Below, piece after piece: positions 789 through 34,109 of a DNA stretch of 63,023 nucleotides; within the stretch, counting starts at the first letter, position 1, and each line of letters starts with the position of its first letter. The stretch is from positions 1 through 63,023 of the forward strand of contig JWZX01003152.1 of assembly GCA_001275005.1 (NCBI GenBank). The letters run 5' to 3'. The notes under the pieces were generated by a model. The model ran no database searches and was not told the DNA's origin. It saw only the letters and a list, made by a program, of their open reading frames with translations. The stretch comes from Chrysochromulina tobinii. Taxonomy: Eukaryota. Position numbers and translations under genes: made by a program.

Positions 789-796
789 TTTGAATC

Positions 797-839
797 ACTT
801 GACTTGACTTGACTTGACTTGACTTGACTTGACTTGACT
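797..839. repeat. (ACTTG)8 microsatellite in a divergent intergenic gap
   Basis: Eight perfect pentamers plus ACT between ATGs at 788(-) and 901(+). Confidence 0.95.
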
Positions 840-900: not shown

Positions 901-2511
901 ATGCAGGCCACGATGGCTGCGCCCTCCACGGCGCCGCCGACGGCGCCGCAGCGCTTTGACCCGTCGGTCGATCTCGTCACCGCGGCGGACGCGCTCTTCG
1001 AGGCGCTCTTTCCGCTGCTCGACCGCGACGGAAGCGGCTGGGCCTCGGAGGAGGACGTCATCGCGGCGCTGATCTGCTCGGTGGGCACCGAGGAGCGCGC
1101 GCGCGTGGCGCTCGCTCGCGTGACCGAGTCGGGCCACGTCGATCAGCGATGCCTGCGCGAGCTCATCGAGGCGCAGATGCCGCCGCAGACGGGCGAGAAC
1201 GGCGCGCAGTGGCACGTGCGGCTCGTCCGCTTCGTGCTCGCGATCATCCGCGACTTTGAGAAGCGCGCAATCGACCGCGGCGACTTCGTCGCGTCGGCCG
1301 AGGGCCGCGAGGTCGCGCGCCACGTGCGCGAGATGGAGCAGCGCCGCGCCTTCGCGACGCTCGAGGCGCTCAAGAGGGAGCAGCACGGCGGCCTCCGGCG
1401 CGGCCAGGTGGCCGAGGCGCGCCAGTTCAACAAGGAGTGGACTGTGCGCATGGCGGAGTTCAACAACCACGCGCGGCGCGCGGTCGCCGAGCTGCGCGCG
1501 CGCCACGAGGCTGCCGTCGAGGGCTTCATCGCCGAGCATCGCCCGCAGATGCACGATCAGTTTAAGCGCACGCACCACGCGCAAGAGACGCTGGACGCCA
1601 AGTTCACGCTCACGCGGCTCACCCTCGCGGAGGAGTTCACCGAGGCGAACAAGTACGCGAAGCGCGTGCAGCAGCTGACACGGCGCGACGCCGAGGAGGC
1701 CGCCACGCTCAGCGAGCTCGCACTGCAGAAGAAGCTCGACGTGCTGCGCTGGCAACAGAACCTCGAGCTCCGCGGGCTCCTTGCCAAGGTCGCGCGGCTG
1801 CTCGAATGAGGGCTGGAGACCCCCCTGCCTACCCCCTGCCTTGCATGCAACTGCTCACCACGGCGCCTCGTCCCTCGTTCACACCTCGTCCCTCGTTCAC
1901 ACCTCGTCCCTCGTTCACAGGTCGCGAGGCTGCGCTCGGAGCACCGGGGCGCTTGGGAGGAGGGGCTGTCGCGGCTGGTGCTGAGTCAGCGAAACACGCT
2001 GCAGGCGCTCGATGCCAAGCAGAAGGTCGATTCGAGGCACGCTGCTGAGGCCGTCCGCAGGATGCTCGAGCCCGCGGCGACGCCCAAGGCCGAGCCAGCT
2101 GCACCCGTGCGTTCCAATCTCGCACTGCTCTCGCCGCGCGGTGGGGTCTATCGCGCCGTGGCGCCTGCCCACGCAGCAGCCGTGGCGCCCGTGCAGAGGC
2201 CCAGCCGAATGGTCGCCGCCGCCTCGGCGCGCGCCTTCTCAGCCGCCAGTGGGCGCGGCGGCGGCGTCGACATGAACACGCCGGCGCCGCCTAAAATATT
2301 CCTCACCGGGACAAGCGAGCTACGCCCGCCCTCGCCGCCCTCGCCCACAGCCGTTCACCCGCCGCGCCCGATCTCGAGCTTTCACGAGCCCGTGCAACTC
2401 GCACCACCTCCTCGACCCATCGGCTACTCCGCTGCCTCGCCGCGCACGCCGCGCACGCCGCGCGCTGGCAGCGTGCAGCTCCGAGCTCGCGTGCGTGGGA
2501 TCGAGATGTGA
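901..2511 (+). CDS. Coiled-coil protein with N-terminal EF-hand-like loop; exons 901-1788 and 1921-2511
   Basis: DRDGSGWASEED loop; phase-0 intron AAG|GTCGCG...TTCACAG|GTC joins ORF 901 to ORF 1978..2511 in frame. Confidence 0.75.
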
Positions 2512-2872
2512 TCATGCGGTCTCCCGTCCCTCAGTCTCGAGTCTGCCGGGGCGGGGGCAACTCACTAGAGCAACTCCTCTCTGTCACTCTGTCTCAGATG
2601 AGGAGCGGATATCTCCGATTTCAAGATACCCTGTTGACTGCGTGACTGTGGCCGCACACACCCCATGAATCGCACATGGCGCGCGCGAAACTTTTGTTTG
2701 CTTCTGGGGGGCCGGGGGCAAGTCTCCCTCCGGTGTCTTCCTGACTCGACCTGACTTTTTGTTAAGGGACCCAAGAGCCAACCTTGCAACTTTTCATCAT
2801 GTTTGGAGACGCCTCACGCGAGAGACCTCGCGCCATTCACTGAAGCGCGCCGTACCTCGTCCAAAAAGCCGC

Positions 2873-3118
2873 ATGGCCAACTCCGGCGACAACTACTTTG
2901 GCGAGCAGCTCGTTAACTACATCGAGGTTCACTTCACGGCACCATGCCACAAGATCCTTCCCCTGGGATATCCAGGCCACGGACTTTGCCAGACCCTTCC
3001 GGCGTTTATGATCTTTCCGTTCATCATCCTGCCAGTCGTACTTCTGGCGTGGTGGGAGCAGAGGTCCAAAGCGAAGGCGGCGGCAGAGGCCAACATGGGG
3101 GGGAAGAAGGCCAATTAG
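2873..3118 (+). CDS. 81-aa single-pass membrane protein with C-terminal KKxx (KKAN) ER-retrieval motif
   Basis: ATG at 2873, TM segment FMIFPFIILPVVLLAWW, ends GGKKAN*, codon usage like neighbouring genes. Confidence 0.65.
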   Translation: MANSGDNYFGEQLVNYIEVHFTAPCHKILPLGYPGHGLCQTLPAFMIFPFIILPVVLLAWWEQRSKAKAAAEANMGGKKAN

Positions 3119-3799
3119 GCGGCGCCGTCGGCGTCGGCGTCGCGCTCGTCGTGGGCACGGCCGTGCGGTGGACGGCGGTGATGCTCACCTCGGGGCTGGA
3201 TGTGACGGCGCTCGAGGACCACCCGCTGCTTGTGACCACCGCAACATCGGCGCCGTGCCGGCGTGAGGCGGCCTTCCTGAAGCCGCTCGGCTTGCTCCCT
3301 GGCGACGCGTGCGCGGGCCCTCCGAATCTCTGGATGTCGCCCACGCTGCCATCACCACTGACCTCACTTCTGACCTCACTTCCGCTGCCCTCACTTCCGC
3401 TGCCATCGCTCTTCACATTGTCGTCGGAGGGCGCGGCGCTCGGTGCGCTCTTCGCGATCGACTTGGGTTGCGTGCACCTTCTGCTGCTGCTCCGCCGTGC
3501 GACTGCCTCCTCGAGCTCCCGCTCCTTTTATGGCGCCCCCCTCCCTCTGCTGGGCATCGGTCGCCTCGCGTGCCTCGCTCCTCTCGTCTCTCCTCCAAAT
3601 CTTGCCGCCGCCGTCGCCTCCAGCACGGCGCCCTGCCCCTGGCTGCTGCTGCTGCTCGCTGCCTGGCTAGCGGCCCACGCGCACGCTCTCGTCGCGGGCG
3701 CGTGCCTCGCGCTTGCGACAGCCCTATCCCTTGACTGGTTGTGGATGCTCCCAGCCCTCATGGTGCTCGCCGCACACGCCCCGTGCCTAGCTACCGCCA

Positions 3800-3831
<32 letters not shown>

Positions 3832-4716
3832 GGCGGCAACGACGGCGGCGGCGGAAGCGGCAGACGTCATCAGCGTCATCGACACCAGCTCCGGGCTGGT
3901 GGCACCATGTCCGCGGTGCGCTGCTGTTGCGCCTTCAGCCTGACGCTATGCGGCGTCGTGTGGGGTACTCTACACGGCGAGCCGCCAGGCGCCGCGGCGG
4001 CCGGCGGGGGCGCCGCGCGTGCGTTCCTCGTGTGGCTCCGTGGCGGGCCGTGGCACAGTGCGCCCAATGTGGGCGTCTGGTGGTATCTCATGTGCCTTGC
4101 GTTCGGTCCCGACCGCCCCACGTTTGCATTCGCGCTCCACTTGCTTCCACGGCTGTGCGTGCCTGCGCTCGCGACCCTTGCTCTGCATTCGCCATGCGGC
4201 GAGGAGGAGGGCGGTGAGGAGGGCGGCGAGGAGGGCGGCGAGGAGGGCGGCGAGGAGGGCGGCGAGGACGGTGCTGAGGGCAACACGAGCACCACGAGCA
4301 CCCTCAAGCCGCCGCTCCGGCCCACGACGACGCTCCGGCCCACGACGACGCTCCTGCGGCCCCCGCTGCCGCTGCCGTCACCGCCGCCTTCGCCTTTTTT
4401 GCCGTATGCTCTGTGCGCCGCCGTGCTCACGGCCACGGCGCAGACGCCCACGCTGCCCGACATAGCGCTTGCAGTCGCATTCGTCCTTTCACAGCTCGAT
4501 GTGCACGTACTGAGCCGAACGAGTCGGCTGCTGCCCGCCGCCCTCGGCGCGCTGCTCGTGGGCGGCGCAGCGAGCGCGCCGCTGCTGGCAGCGTGGGTCG
4601 AGCAGCGGCAGCTCAACGCCAACTTCTTCTACCTGGCGACGCTGGCCGTTGGCGCTGGCCAGCTGCTGTTCGTGTACGACGTGAGTGCGGCGGTCGTGGA
4701 TGGATCGGGGTTTTGA
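2944..4716 (+). CDS. PIGU: GPI transamidase subunit PIG-U (GAB1) family; start uncertain (ATG 2944 or 3181)
   Basis: Multi-TM protein with PNVGVWWY (cf. PNIGLFWY) and C-terminal NANFFYLATL (cf. NSNFFYAITL) motifs. Confidence 0.8.
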
Positions 4717-5153
4717 GGGCACGGGCAAAGAGGGATGAGTAAGGTTGAAAGCGGACACTAAGGCTCACTTTTGCATCGTGACAGATTTGGACAGAAACCA
4801 ACAAATCTGGGGACCGGGTAATCACAAACTTGTCGAGAACCCGAGCTTCAAGCTCCCCGAGCACATTTTCAAACCAAACCCAAAGGTGCAACTCGCCGAC
4901 GCGCTTCTCGCTTGCCGCCTCACGCTCGCCGCCTCATCAGCGACCCGGCCCCACGACCCGCCCAGTCGCCCTCGTGCCTACCATCTTTCTGCCCATAGCC
5001 TCACGACCCCCCGGAATCCGCGCGATCTCCATGCGACCGCCCGATTCGCCTTGTACGGTGCTCGCGCTTCCGTCACACCCGACCTCCGCTCATCCGTCGC
5101 GCGCGCTTGCCCCCTTCCCTCCCGCAGAACCAAAGAGTTCAACAGCAACCAAA

Positions 5154-6572
5154 ATGACCAACTATACGACATCCAACAACCTCGCACTCGAGTCCACCTT
5201 CGATGTGCTCTGCGGCTCACCGCAGATCAAGCGCCAGCCGTCCTCGGCCAAGGGCGACCGCTTCCTTCCCCGGCGCGCCGCGATGGACCTTGACGTGTCC
5301 CGCGACGAGCTCTACAACGACTCCAACGCCGAGAACGCCGATGCCAACGGCTCCGTCGCGGGCAACGTCGTGACCGCCTCGCCGGCCAAGGAGGAGTACA
5401 ATTCGCAGCTCGCCAAGGTCCTGGGAAAGGACCGGACAGCCAAGGTGCTCGCCTTCAAGGAGAAGGCGCCCAAACCCGCGGAGGACCACCAGCAGTCGAT
5501 GCGCGCGCTCTACACGCAGAACCGCGAGGCGAGCGCGCAGCCACGCAAGTTCTCGCGCCACATTCCGAACGCCCCCGAGCGCATCCTGGACGCTCCCGAG
5601 CTCCTCGACGACTACTACCTCAACCTGCTCGACTGGTCCTCAACGAACGTGCTCGGCGTGGCGCTGGGCGCGTCGGTCTACCTGTGGAACGCGAATGACG
5701 GCTCGATCGACCAGCTCATGGAGACGTCGGCCGACTCGCACGTGACCTCTCTCAGCTGGATCGAGCAGGGGCACTACATGGCCGTTGGCACCTCGGACCA
5801 CAAGGTCCAGATCTGGGACGTGGCGAAGAAGAAGCAGCTGCGCTCGATGGATGGGCACTCGCAGCGCGTCGGCGCGCTCGCTTGGAACGGCCCGATGCTC
5901 TCTTCAGGCGGGCGCGACGCGCGCATCGTGCAGCACGACGTCCGGGCGCAGCAGCACCTGACCGCCACGCTCAAGGGCCACACGCAGGAGGTCTGCGGCC
6001 TCAAGTGGTCGGCCAACGGCACGATGCTCGCCTCCGGCGGCAACGACAACTTGCTCAACATCTGGGATGACCGCTACCTGAGCGCATCGACCAACGTCTG
6101 CGAGACGCCGCTCCACCGCATTGAAGCACACCGCGCCGCTGTCAAGGCTATCGCGTGGTGCCCGTGGCAGAAGAATCTGCTCGCGAGCGGTGGCGGCACG
6201 GCCGACCGTTGCATCCGCTTCTGGAACGCGACAACCGGCGCGTGCCTGAACCAGATCGACACGCACTCCCAGGTGTGCGCACTGCAGTGGTCCAAGCACG
6301 AGAAGGAGATTGTCTCGTCGCACGGCTACTCGCACAACCAGCTCATTCTGTGGAAGTACCCCTCGATGGTCAAGGCGGCTGAGCTGACCGGCCACACTGC
6401 GCGTGTGCTGCACATGGCCCAGTCGCCCGACGGCCAGACCATCGTCTCCGCTGCCGCCGATGAGACCCTTCGCTTCTGGAAGATCCTCTCCGGCGGCGAG
6501 CAGGCGAAGAAAGAGAAGATGCTCTCGCATGTCTCGTCGCTGACCAACCCCCACTTGACCTCGATCAGGTAA
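5154..6572 (+). CDS. CDC20: APC/C activator CDC20/Fizzy (WD40); probable 5'UTR intron 4886-5127
   Basis: C-box DRFLP, KVLAFK Mad2-binding-like motif, ERILDAPELLDDYYLNLLDWS, WD40 repeats, C-terminal IR tail. Confidence 0.96.
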   Translation: MTNYTTSNNLALESTFDVLCGSPQIKRQPSSAKGDRFLPRRAAMDLDVSRDELYNDSNAENADANGSVAGNVVTASPAKEEYNSQLAKVLGKDRTAKVLAFKEKAPKPAEDHQQSMRALYTQNREASAQPRKFSRHIPNAPERILDAPELLDDYYLNLLDWSSTNVLGVALGASVYLWNANDGSIDQLMETSADSHVTSLSWIEQGHYMAVGTSDHKVQIWDVAKKKQLRSMDGHSQRVGALAWNGPMLSSGGRDARIVQHDVRAQQHLTATLKGHTQEVCGLKWSANGTMLASGGNDNLLNIWDDRYLSASTNVCETPLHRIEAHRAAVKAIAWCPWQKNLLASGGGTADRCIRFWNATTGACLNQIDTHSQVCALQWSKHEKEIVSSHGYSHNQLILWKYPSMVKAAELTGHTARVLHMAQSPDGQTIVSAAADETLRFWKILSGGEQAKKEKMLSHVSSLTNPHLTSIR

Positions 6573-7204: not shown

Positions 7205-8185
7205 ATGGTGGCGAAAGCAAAGAAAATCGCCTACTTTGCGCACCTCGAGGAGTGCCTGAACAAGTACCCGCGCGCGTTCATCGTTGATGCGGACTTCGTC
7301 GGCTCGAAGCAGATCTCGGACATCCGCATTGCCCTCCGCGGCAAGGCGGAGCTCGTCTTTGGCAAGAACACCATGATCCGCAAGTGCATCCGGAACATGT
7401 GCGAGAAGGATCCGGAGGATCCGCACCCCGAGTGGGAGTCGATCATTCCGTACATGGTCGGCAACGTCGGTTTCATCTTCACGACCGGCGACCTTGACAA
7501 GATCGAGGACGTCGTCAAGGAGTTCGTCAAGCCGGCGGCCGCCAAGGCTGGCGTCATCGCGCCGAACGGGTGCAAGATCGAAAAGGGCCCGACCGGCCTT
7601 GACCCGGCCCAGACCGCCTTCTTCCAGGCCCTCAACATCGCCACCAAGATCAACAAGGGCTCCATTGAGATCGTCAACGACGTCGAGGTGATCAAGACTG
7701 GCCAGAAGGTTGGCTCGTCTGAGGCGGCGCTTCTCGCCAAGCTCGGTGTGAAGCCGTTCAAGTACGGGCTGCGCATTCTCTACGTGTACGAGGGCGGCGT
7801 CTTCCCCACCGACGTGCTCAAGATCACCGAAGAGACGCTCATGTCCAAGTGGTCCGACGGTCTCGGCAACGTGGCGGCGGTCTCGCTTGCTCTCAATCTG
7901 CCCAACGACGCCTCGTTCCCGCACATGTTCATCAAGGGGGCGAAGAACGTGGTTGCGGTGGCACTCGAGGCGGGCTTCATCGAGTTCGACGTGGTCAAGA
8001 AGATCAAGGACATGCTCGACAACCCCGACAAGTACTCGGGCGGCGGCGGTGGCGGAGGCGGCGGCGCGGCTCCGGCGCCGGCGGCGGCGAAGGGAGGCGC
8101 CCCTGCCCCTGCGGCCGCGGCCAAGGCGCCTGAGCCGGAGCCCGCGGAGGAGGAGGAGGCTGCGGCCTTCGACCTCTTCGATTAA
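7205..8185 (+). CDS. RPLP0: 60S acidic ribosomal protein P0 (uL10); probable 5'UTR intron 6998-7182
   Basis: GKNTMIRK, GNVGFIFT, GPTGLDP..T.FFQALNI.TKI.KG.IEI, Ala/Gly hinge, C-terminal EEEEAAAFDLFD. Confidence 0.97.
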   Translation: MVAKAKKIAYFAHLEECLNKYPRAFIVDADFVGSKQISDIRIALRGKAELVFGKNTMIRKCIRNMCEKDPEDPHPEWESIIPYMVGNVGFIFTTGDLDKIEDVVKEFVKPAAAKAGVIAPNGCKIEKGPTGLDPAQTAFFQALNIATKINKGSIEIVNDVEVIKTGQKVGSSEAALLAKLGVKPFKYGLRILYVYEGGVFPTDVLKITEETLMSKWSDGLGNVAAVSLALNLPNDASFPHMFIKGAKNVVAVALEAGFIEFDVVKKIKDMLDNPDKYSGGGGGGGGGAAPAPAAAKGGAPAPAAAAKAPEPEPAEEEEAAAFDLFD

Positions 8186-31225: not shown

Positions 31226-32554
31226 TCACTGTCCGGGGTAACGCGGCGGCTGCGGCGCACGGTCGCGCTCGACGGGGATGGGGATCGCTTGTCGCTGTAG
31301 GGAGCCCTGCATGCGTCGGTCGGCCGTTGGGATCAGAAGCCCGCCGGTGCAGCACACGGTGGCGAAGAGGAGGTCGCAGCAGACCATCGGCGCGTCGCAG
31401 TCATACGAGGTCTCACAGGACTGCGGCCCCGTGAGACCGAAGAGGTCCACGCCGCTCTTCGGCGCCGTCTTGGGCGTGCGCAGGTCGCGCAGCCGCTGCT
31501 GCTTGGCCGCATCCTCCGCGCGCTCGCGTGCCGCACGCTCGAGGGGCGTCTCATCGTCAGAAGCCGAGGCCTGCGGGGGTGGCGCGCGCCGCGTTGGGGC
31601 GGCGCGACGACCGTCCTCGCTCTCGGTGCCCTCGGTGCCGGCCTCGCTCGCGCCGCTGCTCGTGCTGCTGAAGCCAAAGTTGAGCAGCGCGTCGGCAAGC
31701 GGTTGGAAGAAAGGCACCGCGGCCTGCGGCGTGGCGTAGCCAGTGGCAGGCCATGCGAAGGCCAGCTGGATGGGCGTCGCGAGGGGCTCCTGGCCCGTCA
31801 GCACGATGTTCTCGAGCCGGTGCTGCCGAATCAAACCATCCTTGTCAAGGTCGTAGACGGACACGCCGTCGATGTGCACGAGCGCGGGCTCACCGTTGAC
31901 GAGGGTCGTGAGGCCAGTGGCCGGGTCGCGCATCCAGAGCTTGGCATTCCAGCGCACGCGGATCTGCGTTCAAGGGAGCGGCAACGGCAGGGTGAGGAAA
32001 TAGACAGGCGAGCGAGCTGACGCCGGGGAGAGGTGTAGGGAGGGGGGGGAAGGGGCCTCAGAGGCGAGGGTGACGGTTCTCACCGACTTGTCGTCCGCAA
32101 CGAGGCGGATGCCGACCTGCGCGTCCTGCATGGTCGTGCGCCGCAGAAAGCGCAGGGCGTCGAAGACGCGCTCGTACTGCTTCTTGCCCGCGAGCCGCTT
32201 GCCCGAGGGGTCGTGCAGTTCGATGTTGTCGGTGAAGATTGACATGTCGGGCCTTTCGGTGAAGAGGCGCGGGTAGTCGTGGCGCAGCACGTCAATCGCA
32301 CGCCCTTGATTGAGCTTGAAGACGGATGGGCCACGCTGCTCCGGCGGCGGCGGCAGGCCCCAAAGGGGCAGGGGCTCTGGCGTGGACTCCTTCTTGGGCG
32401 TGGCGCGTGGCACGGCGGCGATCTCGAGGCGGTCGAGGCGTGCGTTCGACGAGTCGGACGATGAGCTCGTGCTCGACACCCCCGTCGGCGGTCGTGCGCC
32501 GCCGGAGAAGGCCGCCACCGACTCGAGGGCGAGGAAGAGGGCAAGCAAACGCAT
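31226..32554 (-). CDS. Plastid-targeted SnoaL/DUF2358-like protein with Cys-rich tail; intron 31964-32083
   Basis: Presequence ..ESVAA-F; LRHDYP.LF..PD.SIF..I.L.DP..G.K.Y; DGVSVY.LD..G.I..H; G|GTGAGA..CGCAG|ATC joins frames. Confidence 0.8.
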
Positions 32555-32752: not shown

Positions 32753-34109
32753 ATGGCGATCACGCCGACGCTCCTGCTCCTTGTCGCTCCGACCGCTTTC
32801 GCCTTCGTGCCTGCACCTCGACTGGTGCCACGTACCGCGCATTTCTCGCCTCGGCTTGCCATTCGCACCCCGGTGGCGCCCGTCGCCTTTGCCGACCAGG
32901 CGGGCACTCTGGCCGGCACGTTTTTCCAGGCGAGCTTGCTGCCGTACATCGGCTTCCTCTACTTTTTGGGCTATGCGCCCAACAACACGCCAAAGCAGGC
33001 GCTCTTTGGCTTCCAGTTTCTGCTGCTCTTCGTGCTGTCGACCGTCTTCACTGGCATCGTGACCAAGTCGGTCTATGGAGCCTCACTCGCCGACACCGAC
33101 TGGCTTCACGGCGCCGCCGAGGCGCTCCTCACGACGAGCAACCTGTACGTGGCCTCCGGGTTTCGGAACGCGCTTGCCGGCGAGGCGGCGCCCGAGGGCC
33201 CGTCGTTCCGCTTTCCGGCGCTCGCGATCTTTGCGCTCGTCGTGGCGGCGACGGCAGCCGGCCCATCACTGGGCGTCGAGCAGCACAGCGCATTCCTCTA
33301 CGGCATCGGCAACCTCGGCGAGAACCCGCTGGCCGGCGTGCTCGACAGCGTGCGCTCCGAGCCCATCAATGCGCTCTCGCTGCCCACGTGGGCCATCCAC
33401 TTTTCGAGCGTCTTCGAGTGGCTCTTCGCCATGAGTATGCGTCGCTCGAGCACCCTTCCACTCATCTCCACTCATCTCCACCCTGCCTCAGTTCTCCACT
33501 CATCTCCTCTCGCGTGCCCCAAGTCGCGTGCGTTAAGGTTCTCCCTTGACGAGTTTGGCATGCCCCTCCCCTTCCCCCCTACTCGTAGGCTTCGTCGCGC
33601 AGTATGCACAGGCCACGGGCAACGAGCGCTGGCGCTGGCTCACGTACGGCATGCTGCCCCTCCACGCGTCAGGAGTGGCAGCATGCACGTACCATTTCTT
33701 CTACAACTCGGCCGACGTGAGCTTCCTCGTGGCGCTCCAGGCGGGGCTCACCCTCCTCGGCAACTCGACGGTGTGCATCGCCGCGCTGCTCATCGCCCTA
33801 TCCAACGGCTGGACAATCTCCGAACTGAACCCGTTTAAGCCCAAGGGTGAGGCCGGTGAGGCCGGCGAGGCCGCTGCGCCGGCGGCGGCAGTGGTCCCGC
33901 AGCCCGTGATCGCCACTCCGCTGCTCGCCGGTGAGCTGGTGCTGCTCACCGCAGTGTTCAGCTACCTGGTGAAGTATGGCGAGCCGGCGCTCACGCTGCC
34001 ATTCGAGCCGAACGCGCTCGTGGGCTGGGCACTCGTGCTCGGCATCCCTACCTTCGTCGGGTTCCGCTTTGTCGCCGGTGCGTCTGACTCAAACGCGGCA
34101 AGCGCGTAA
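32753..34109 (+). CDS. Plastid membrane protein, DUF3593 + DUF2499 (Ycf49-like) fusion; intron 33435-33588
   Basis: Presequence ..TAFAF; SLLPY.GFL, DWLHG.AE..LT; NALS.PTW.IH.SSV.EW; H.FYN. Confidence 0.85.

What the first reader, a model, noticed from the sequence alone, without database searches (positions are those of the whole stretch)
2873..3183. Small ER membrane protein ORF overlapping the start of PIG-U: bicistronic, dual-coding or frameshift locus
Seen: an 81-aa TM ORF ending in KKAN* (a canonical KKxx ER signal) stops at 3118. The PIG-U-like first helix (VGVALVVGTAVR, cf. human VLVVAVTVR) begins immediately after in the -1 frame, upstream of the next ATG (3181). The only upstream in-frame ATG (2944, accATG) lies inside the small ORF, giving 175 nt of dual coding. 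The first ATG has C at -3, compatible with leaky scanning. A G7 run (ATG GGG GGG, ~3097-3103) could alternatively mediate -1 slippage into PIG-U. Inference: co-expression of an uncharacterised ER partner of GPI transamidase.
Basis: partly seen in the sequence, partly recalled or inferred. Interest (0 to 1): 0.7.

Follow-up and report, generated by a model that had tools for sequence, protein, structure and literature searches.

The report
Overlapping ER microprotein and PIG-U genes

Summary
The sequence features are as described. ORF1 (2873-3118, 81 aa) is a real gene: it belongs to an unnamed family whose 9 of 9 divergent representatives keep a C-terminal KKxx and six invariant residues, so it is likely an ER-retained membrane microprotein. 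The PIG-U frame (2944-4716) passes Pfam's cut-off. G7 is not an assembly error (7 of 7 loci, 4 of 4 RNA runs) and is unlikely to be a frameshift site (5 of 10 close variants cannot carry it; no stimulatory structure). In 4 of 4 RNA runs one gapless contig runs from 17-53 nt before ORF1 through the junction into PIG-U. AUG 2944 is the first AUG after ORF1's start, in the PIG-U frame, with A at -3 (0.7% in codon-shuffled nulls, post hoc). Best reading (0.57): a bicistronic mRNA, PIG-U started by leaky scanning, 175 nt dual-coded. Not shown: single full-length molecules, translation, the start site in other species. A second transcription start is the main rival. C at -3 is common here, so the 'weak Kozak' argument fails, and nothing supports a GPI-transamidase partnership. 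New member of a known kind, carrying an unnamed protein family.

The parts
2873..3118 (+). ORF1: 81-aa single-pass membrane microprotein of an unnamed eukaryotic family, likely ER-retained
   Evidence: 19 close cluster members; 8 divergent relatives, 32-53% identical; GC3 0.75
2924..3001 (+). Conserved core of ORF1: invariant E18, P24, C25, G37, C39, P43 and near-invariant H36; C25-C39 disulfide or metal site is inferred, untested
   Evidence: alignments A2, A3; helix-loop-helix model pLDDT 73.6, pTM 0.39
2993..3049 (+). Predicted transmembrane helix of ORF1 (residues 41-59)
   Evidence: hydropathy 2.39
3104..3115 (+). C-terminal KKxx (KKAN), predicted COPI/ER-retrieval signal
   Evidence: KK at -4/-3 in 9 of 9 representatives with tails of 17-45 residues; meaning of the motif is established knowledge, recalled
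2944..2946 (+). First AUG downstream of the ORF1 start, in the PIG-U frame, A at -3; formed by ORF1 codons GCA CCA TGC; proposed PIG-U start
   Evidence: null model; present in 7 of 7 loci
2944..3118 (+). 175-nt overlap; would encode a 58-residue hydrophilic N-terminal extension of PIG-U in the -1 frame
   Evidence: GC3 0.74 in ORF1 frame against 0.43 in PIG-U frame; extension hydropathy at most 0.16
2944..4716 (+). PIG-U (GPI transamidase subunit) ORF, 590 aa, no intron seen in the covered parts
   Evidence: PF06728 profile positions 3-289 and 296-377; frame intact in L005 (586 aa) and L007 (588 aa) with in-frame indels only; no joints in RNA contigs
3097..3103 (+). G7 run; real, not conserved, not a likely frameshift site
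   Evidence: G7 everywhere; variants M-G-V and K-G-E
3124..3180 (+). First hydrophobic helix of the PIG-U frame, upstream of AUG 3181
   Evidence: hydropathy 1.71; GC3 1.0 over the 21 codons 3118-3180; Pfam match begins at 3154
3181..3183 (+). Second PIG-U-frame AUG; a start here would drop the first helix and needs four upstream AUGs to be passed
2820..4853 (.). Stretch covered by RNA contigs (outer limits over four runs), separated by uncovered gaps from the upstream gene and from CDC20; holes at low-complexity repeats
   Evidence: tables 2 and 8; contigs give neither strand nor true ends

Best explanation
The locus holds two overlapping protein-coding frames, a conserved 81-residue membrane protein that is likely ER-retained and PIG-U, which are likely translated from one unspliced bicistronic mRNA by leaky scanning. 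Shown: both frames, their overlap, ORF1's family and KKxx, G7, and gapless RNA contigs across the junction. Inferred: the transcript starts about 20-55 nt before AUG 2873; most scanning ribosomes start there and make the microprotein; some pass it and meet AUG 2944 (71 nt on, A at -3, no AUG in between), making PIG-U with a dispensable 58-residue hydrophilic, probably cytosolic extension followed by the first membrane helix. The two proteins would be co-expressed and both sent to the ER membrane, but are not inferred to bind.
For: RNA: 4 of 4 runs laid (of 6 RNA holders found) have one contig across ORF1, the junction and into PIG-U with 0 other letters and 0 gaps (2838-3787, 2820-3775, 2836-3605, 2856-3366); depth is zero at 4926-5127 in 4 of 4 runs and at 2704-2804 in 3 of 4, so the cover is gene-shaped rather than DNA carry-over. 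No room for separate units: GC of the 150 nt after the ORF1 stop is 0.75, above all 22 comparison 3' flanks (maximum 0.73), and GC of the 150 nt before AUG 3181 is 0.71, above all 22 5' flanks (maximum 0.69) (comparison genes hand-picked, ends unverified). AUG 2944 is the first AUG after 2873 and is built from two A-ending codons in a GC3-rich gene (GCA 12% of Ala, CCA 15% of Pro); first-AUG, open frame and A at -3 together occur in 0.7% of 200,000 recodings. Sister variants gain or lose ORF1 methionines only downstream of 2944 (F45M, M75K), none in residues 2-24 among 10 sequences. Upstream AUG 2799 changes frame between haplotypes and lies before all RNA contig starts. Architecture matches green-algal bicistrons: short ORF1, long ORF2, short leader, no AUG before ORF2 (PMC11892635, abstract and sections 6 and 12 read). 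A distant relative of ORF1 (P0022, 79 aa) sits on a 1,863-nt transcriptome contig, room for a second ORF, content not seen.
Against: Contigs cannot show a single molecule; two overlapping transcripts give the same contig (tool's own caveat). The RNA runs are all 2019 mixed cultures and may be one campaign. No translation data. C at -3 is not rare here (A 6, C 5, G 4, T 4 of 19 valid putative starts; one of 20 rows was mis-set) and AUG 2873 has G at +4, so weak context is not shown. The 0.7% figure is post hoc; the looser event (any open PIG-U-frame AUG in ORF1) is 10%. The extension shows no codon signature of its own (GC3 0.43). Homology support for the first helix is only 2-3 bits. AUG 2944 could be checked only in 7 loci whose ORF1 DNA is identical to the window's (4 identical throughout, perhaps the same source); no PIG-U relative was retrieved and none of seven tested PIG-U products is in the protein collection, so conservation of linkage and start is untested beyond a contig-length hint.
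Confidence: 0.57

Rival explanations
1. Two transcription starts: a longer RNA makes the microprotein, and a shorter one starting between 2876 and 2943 has AUG 2944 as its first AUG. The genes still overlap by 175 nt but no ribosome has to skip a start.
For: Compatible with the contigs; GC of the 150 nt before AUG 2944 is 0.57, like ordinary 5' flanks (mean 0.56 of 22); ORF1's start context is not demonstrably weak.
Against: All 4 contigs begin upstream of 2873, though contigs would hide a shorter form; no separate 3' end for an ORF1-only RNA is apparent, so the long RNA would still carry both ORFs.
Confidence: 0.17
2. Bicistronic but not dual-coded: ribosomes finishing ORF1 re-initiate at AUG 3181, or at a near-cognate GUG/ACG between 3151 and 3178, giving PIG-U without all or part of its first helix; AUG 2944 is incidental.
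For: An open PIG-U-frame AUG inside ORF1 arises by chance in 10% of recodings; the product from 3181 still scores 82 bits on PF06728; the extension has no coding signature.
Against: 3118-3180 is coding-like (GC3 21 of 21, hydrophobic helix, Pfam reaches profile position 3); human PIG-U has a 12-helix core (PMC9098846, passages read); re-initiation falls with longer upstream ORFs (PMC11892635 section 12).
Confidence: 0.12
3. A minor splice form joins the ORF1 start to the PIG-U frame, so PIG-U comes from a spliced RNA and the microprotein from the retained-intron form.
For: 20 GT/GC..YAG pairs would restore one frame; contigs drop rare variants.
Against: 0 joints in 4 of 4 RNA runs. The only two GT-donor candidates end at a purine-rich acceptor (pyrimidine share 0.27) whereas four inferred introns elsewhere in the window have 0.64-0.91; the two candidates with a good acceptor (3035, 0.77) have poor GC donors.
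Confidence: 0.07
4. Programmed -1 frameshifting on G7 makes a fused microprotein-PIG-U.
For: G7 exists in DNA and RNA and a -1 shift would enter the PIG-U frame with compatible predicted topology.
Against: 5 of 10 close ORF1 variants read M-G-V or K-G-E there, which allow at most five Gs; G GGG GGG does not fit the usual X XXY YYZ with Y = A or U (rule recalled); downstream folding is no better than shuffles (z -0.13 and -0.73); an upstream in-frame AUG makes a shift unnecessary.
Confidence: 0.03
5. Assembly error: the true sequence has another G count and one fused ORF.
For: Homopolymer runs are error-prone (general knowledge).
Against: G7 in 7 of 7 loci, 3 of another haplotype, and in 4 of 4 RNA runs; ORF1 ends at the same place in all 18 close sequences read and all 8 divergent relatives are free-standing small proteins ending in KKxx.
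Confidence: 0.01

Closest known systems
Green-algal nuclear bicistronic loci translated by leaky scanning (PMC11892635: abstract, sections 6 and 12, supplement search; PMC7896298: passages and supplement search)
   Same: Short conserved ORF1 of unknown function ahead of a long ORF2, short leader, no AUG between the two starts.
   Different: Those papers describe inter-ORF gaps (medians 183 and 40 nt); here the frames overlap by 175 nt. The organism is likely an alga with a complex plastid, not a chlorophyte (inferred from signal-peptide-plus-AF starts of several window genes). No PIG-U entry in their supplements (7 files each). Weak ORF1 context, single-molecule reads and translation are shown there, not here.
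Human bicistronic transcripts PYURF-PIGY, MIURF-MIEF1, ASDURF-ASNSD1, STREMI-SLC35A4 (named in PMC13303939, passages read)
   Same: A conserved microprotein upstream of a larger ORF on one mRNA; PYURF-PIGY also involves a GPI-pathway gene.
   Different: Unrelated proteins; in PYURF-PIGY the GPI gene is a small subunit of an early step and the upstream protein is mitochondrial (recalled), a warning that co-encoding need not mean shared function.
PIG-U / Gab1 / Cdc91 (Pfam PF06728), subunit of the five-subunit GPI transamidase (PMC9098846, passages read)
   Same: 83 bits against cut-off 24.5; profile positions 3-289 and 296-377 covered.
   Different: Very divergent, with low-complexity inserts (poly-Gly near residue 285-300, acidic repeats near 420-445) and a predicted 58-residue extension read from inside ORF1.
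UPF0542 (PF15086) small membrane proteins; the link to human SMIM15 is recalled
   Same: Similar size, one membrane helix and lysine-rich tail; weak hits in 1 of 17 members (E 0.046) and in the Atlas (score 0.79, 19% of cluster members).
   Different: 14 bits against a cut-off of 27; scores at chance level; a lead only.

Membership tests
Nuclear bicistronic locus, leaky-scanning type | Both ORFs on single mRNA molecules | tested here: inconclusive
   Gapless contigs across the junction in 4 of 4 RNA runs, but contigs cannot show single molecules
Nuclear bicistronic locus, leaky-scanning type | Both ORFs encode conserved proteins | tested here: met
   ORF1 family; PIG-U Pfam
Nuclear bicistronic locus, leaky-scanning type | Short ORF1 and no AUG between ORF1 start and ORF2 start | tested here: met
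   246 nt; 0 AUG in 2876-2943 if ORF2 starts at 2944; not met for a start at 3181 (three more AUGs)
Nuclear bicistronic locus, leaky-scanning type | Short 5' leader | tested here: inconclusive
   Contigs begin 17-53 nt before AUG 2873, but contigs do not show true starts
Nuclear bicistronic locus, leaky-scanning type | Weak start context at ORF1 relative to the organism's consensus | tested here: inconclusive
   C at -3 in 5 of 19 putative starts; sample small and unverified
Nuclear bicistronic locus, leaky-scanning type | Translation of both ORFs; ORF2 output inversely tied to ORF1 start strength | not testable with these tools
   Needs ribosome profiling, proteomics or reporters
Nuclear bicistronic locus, leaky-scanning type | Arrangement kept in other species | tested here: inconclusive
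   7 of 7 loci keep it but are the same species; sister variants of ORF1, CDC20 and RPLP0 share longest-contig lengths 38,311 and (ORF1, RPLP0) 15,516, an indirect synteny hint; their DNA was not seen
PIG-U (PF06728) | Score above the curated cut-off over most of the profile | tested here: met
   83.3 bits against 24.5
PIG-U (PF06728) | 12 membrane helices in two rings | tested here: inconclusive
   10 hydropathy peaks of 1.6 or more; single-sequence model unusable, pLDDT 45
KKxx-type ER-retrieved membrane protein | Membrane helix followed by a tail with lysines at -4 and -3 | tested here: met
   9 of 9 representatives; crude tail-shuffle product 5e-11
KKxx-type ER-retrieved membrane protein | ER localisation and COPI binding | not testable with these tools
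   Needs tagging and KK-to-AA mutation
Programmed -1 frameshift site | Conserved slippery heptamer of the usual form | tested here: not met
   G run broken in 5 of 10 close variants; form of heptamer rule recalled
Programmed -1 frameshift site | Stimulatory structure just downstream | tested here: not met
   z -0.13 and -0.73 against 200 shuffles; pseudoknots not modelled
GPI transamidase subunit (ORF1) | Sequence relationship to a known subunit or GPI-pathway small protein | tested here: inconclusive
   No such Pfam family among 14 weak hits for 17 members at E up to 10; no such PDB chain among 5 weak hits; remote homology not excluded
GPI transamidase subunit (ORF1) | Physical association with the complex | not testable with these tools
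   Needs co-purification
UPF0542 (PF15086) | Score above the curated cut-off | tested here: not met
   Best 14 bits against 27, 1 of 17 members

The most novel reading that the evidence does not exclude
An ancient overlapping bicistron in algae with complex plastids: the start codon of PIG-U is written into the invariant Pro-Cys of an undescribed ER microprotein, which fixes the ratio of the two, and the microprotein is a lineage-specific sixth subunit or assembly factor of GPI transamidase.
Probability: 0.1. Interest if true: 0.8.

Novelty: new member of a known kind. Interest (0 to 1): 0.5.

Why it matters
If confirmed it would extend leaky-scanning bicistrons, well documented in green algae, to another algal lineage and in an overlapping form; my searches found no paper on this (open-access library only). 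It explains why gene callers list the small protein on 44 contigs while none of seven tested PIG-U products is on record, so PIG-U may be mis-called or scored as missing in these organisms. Independently of the mRNA question, ORF1 defines an unnamed family of likely ER membrane microproteins with a strictly kept KKxx and Cys/His core, a ready target for tagging and knockout.

Tried and rejected
No whole genome is held for this window. Word-indexed searches for PIG-U relatives found none among about 8,000 candidates each, so relatives' N-termini were not seen; this is a sensitivity limit, not absence. ORF1 loci: none in viral contigs (0 of 88 candidates); one weak bacterial hit in genome contigs (L008, 34% over 56 residues) treated as chance. 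P0019 (2,373-aa repeat protein) and P0021 (36-aa fragment) were dropped from the 11 hits before counting divergent relatives; P0029, a 389-aa MFS transporter clustered with P0021, is a clustering artefact, not a fusion. ORF1 has no assignment by Pfam, PDB sequence, Atlas (best 0.84, chance level), Foldseek (no E up to 0.001) or VIA-align (best Z 5.5, generic helices); these blanks do not show a new fold. DPM2, PIG-P and PIG-Y were considered from memory as small GPI-pathway proteins; no call supported them. The complex prediction of PIG-U with ORF1 returned 'no answer' (score 0.00, both chains folded without alignment), which is no evidence either way. The single-sequence PIG-U model (pLDDT 45) was not used for a fold search. 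N-terminal extensions of ORF1 in P0001-P0004, P0011, P0014, P0018 differ in frame and sequence and are read as gene-caller overreach. RNA depth was not used to rank ORF1 against PIG-U. DNA of the sister lineage at AUG 2944, a DNA-run control and the two remaining RNA holders were not examined, which leaves conservation of the start codon open. Earlier-findings look-ups by sequence and by place were empty. bioRxiv supplements were not visible and could hold lists of bicistrons from other algae.

Full report
Setting. The window is GC-rich, intron-poor eukaryotic DNA. The locus lies between an unassigned gene (901-2511) and CDC20 (5154-6572), followed by RPLP0 and a methyltransferase. Several window genes begin with a signal peptide followed by an AF-like motif, which suggests an alga with a complex plastid; a haptophyte is my guess from memory, no call names the organism. 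No whole genome is held.

Observation. Two further ORF1-frame AUGs (3008, 3095) lie before 3181.

ORF1 is a real gene. It has coding-like GC3 (0.75; 0.74 within the overlap, where the PIG-U frame has 0.43). Its exact sequence is on 44 contigs and in a cluster of 16, with a second cluster of 3. A profile search of 1.84 billion representatives gave 11 hits; after dropping one repeat protein and one fragment, there remain its own cluster and 8 divergent relatives, 32-53% identical to it. E18, P24, C25, G37, C39 and P43 are invariant. All 9 representatives end with lysines at -4 and -3 although their tails run from 17 to 45 residues (crude shuffle product 5e-11, which ignores any drift of lysines to the end). 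This makes ER retrieval by COPI the likely fate (meaning of KKxx recalled). The model is a helix, a loop and a long helix that includes the membrane segment (pLDDT 73.6). No family, solved structure or fold could be assigned; UPF0542 is a weak lead only.

G7. It is the same in 7 of 7 metagenome loci (7 confirmed of 99 pattern matches; 4 identical to the window over 1800-5400, 3 of another haplotype differing by about 2% elsewhere) and in 4 of 4 RNA runs, so there is no assembly error. It is not conserved: 5 of 10 close variants read M-G-V or K-G-E, allowing at most five Gs. The downstream RNA folds no better than shuffles. A programmed frameshift is unlikely.

Transcript. Six RNA runs hold the stretch; four were laid. 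Each has one contig from 17-53 nt upstream of AUG 2873 through the junction into PIG-U, without mismatch, gap or joint; cover stops between genes. Contigs cannot prove single molecules, strand or true ends, and the runs may be one campaign. Base composition agrees with a single unit: the 150 nt after ORF1's stop and the 150 nt before AUG 3181 are more GC-rich than all 22 comparison flanks. Twenty splice pairs could join ORF1's start to the PIG-U frame, but none is seen in RNA and none has both a GT donor and the pyrimidine-rich acceptor of four inferred introns elsewhere in the window. Two other split or overlapping ORF pairs in the window are explained by such introns, which serves as a contrast.

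Where PIG-U starts. A start at 3181 would drop a hydrophobic, coding-like helix that extends the Pfam alignment from position 84-85 to position 3, although for only 2-3 bits, and a scanning ribosome would have to pass four AUGs. AUG 2944 is the first AUG after 2873, in frame, with A at -3, and is spelled by two A-ending codons. In 200,000 synonymous recodings of ORF1 with this window's codon usage an open PIG-U-frame AUG arose in 10%, with A at -3 in 1.0%, and as first AUG with A at -3 in 0.7%. This is modest, post hoc support for selection. The extension it adds is hydrophilic and probably harmless.

Conservation of linkage. Not established. PIG-U relatives were not retrieved. Hints only: sister-lineage variants of ORF1 (88% identical), CDC20 (99%) and RPLP0 (98%) share longest-contig lengths of 38,311 and, for ORF1 and RPLP0, 15,516, which suggests kept gene order; a distant ORF1 relative lies on a 1,863-nt transcriptome contig, but others lie on contigs of 521-572 nt, which could be fragments or stand-alone transcripts.

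Function of the pair. Both products are predicted ER membrane proteins, but nothing here ties ORF1 to GPI transamidase. The human enzyme structure has five subunits (PMC9098846, passages), and most green-algal bicistronic pairs are predicted to have unrelated functions (PMC11892635 section 12). I put a functional partnership at about 0.1-0.15.

Comparison and novelty. The architecture works like the green-algal leaky-scanning bicistrons (PMC11892635; PMC7896298, passages and supplements) and human pairs such as PYURF-PIGY (named in PMC13303939, passages). Membership is not proven because single-molecule and translation tests are missing. Searches for a haptophyte or PIG-U bicistron found nothing relevant in the listings (listings and abstract starts only; subscription papers are not covered). 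Two earlier AI notes describe similar overlapping arrangements in other eukaryotes, unchecked.

Verdict. Observation confirmed; bicistronic dual-coding by leaky scanning is the best reading (0.57), a second transcription start (0.17) and re-initiation (0.12) are the main rivals; frameshift and assembly error are effectively excluded. New member of a known kind, carrying an unnamed ER microprotein family. Interest 0.5.

Noticed in passing
window 901-2511: Upstream gene with no Pfam assignment; removing 1789-1920 (GT..AG, pyrimidine-rich, with a threefold short repeat) gives one 492-codon frame; the two ends of the intron are flanked by near-identical sequence.
   Followed up: partly
window 796-839: Tandem GACTT pentamer repeat just upstream of the gene at 901.
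   Followed up: no
window 32753-34109: DUF3593 + DUF2499 gene appears as two overlapping ORFs; the DUF2499 domain is split and a pyrimidine-rich acceptor lies at 33588, so an ordinary intron is likely.
   Followed up: partly
window 31226-32554, minus strand: DUF2358 gene split by a stop inside a likely pyrimidine-rich intron ending near 31964.
   Followed up: partly
window 5031-5154: CDC20: RNA contigs begin at 5130-5173, just after a pyrimidine-rich CAG at 5127; possible 5' UTR intron or start; the protein on record starts at 5154, not 5031.
   Followed up: no
window 3786-3870 and 4200-4370: Poly-Gly and acidic/Thr-Pro repeat inserts inside PIG-U vary in length between haplotypes by multiples of three bases.
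   Followed up: partly
protein P0029 (cluster of P0021): A 389-aa MFS transporter is filed in the same 90% cluster as a 36-aa ORF1 fragment: a clustering error in the collection.
   Followed up: yes
window 2873-3118 against 7205-8185 and 5154-6572: ORF1's exact sequence is listed from eukprot and NCBI but not UniRef or NCBI nr, unlike RPLP0 and CDC20, so it may be missing from a reference annotation.
   Followed up: no
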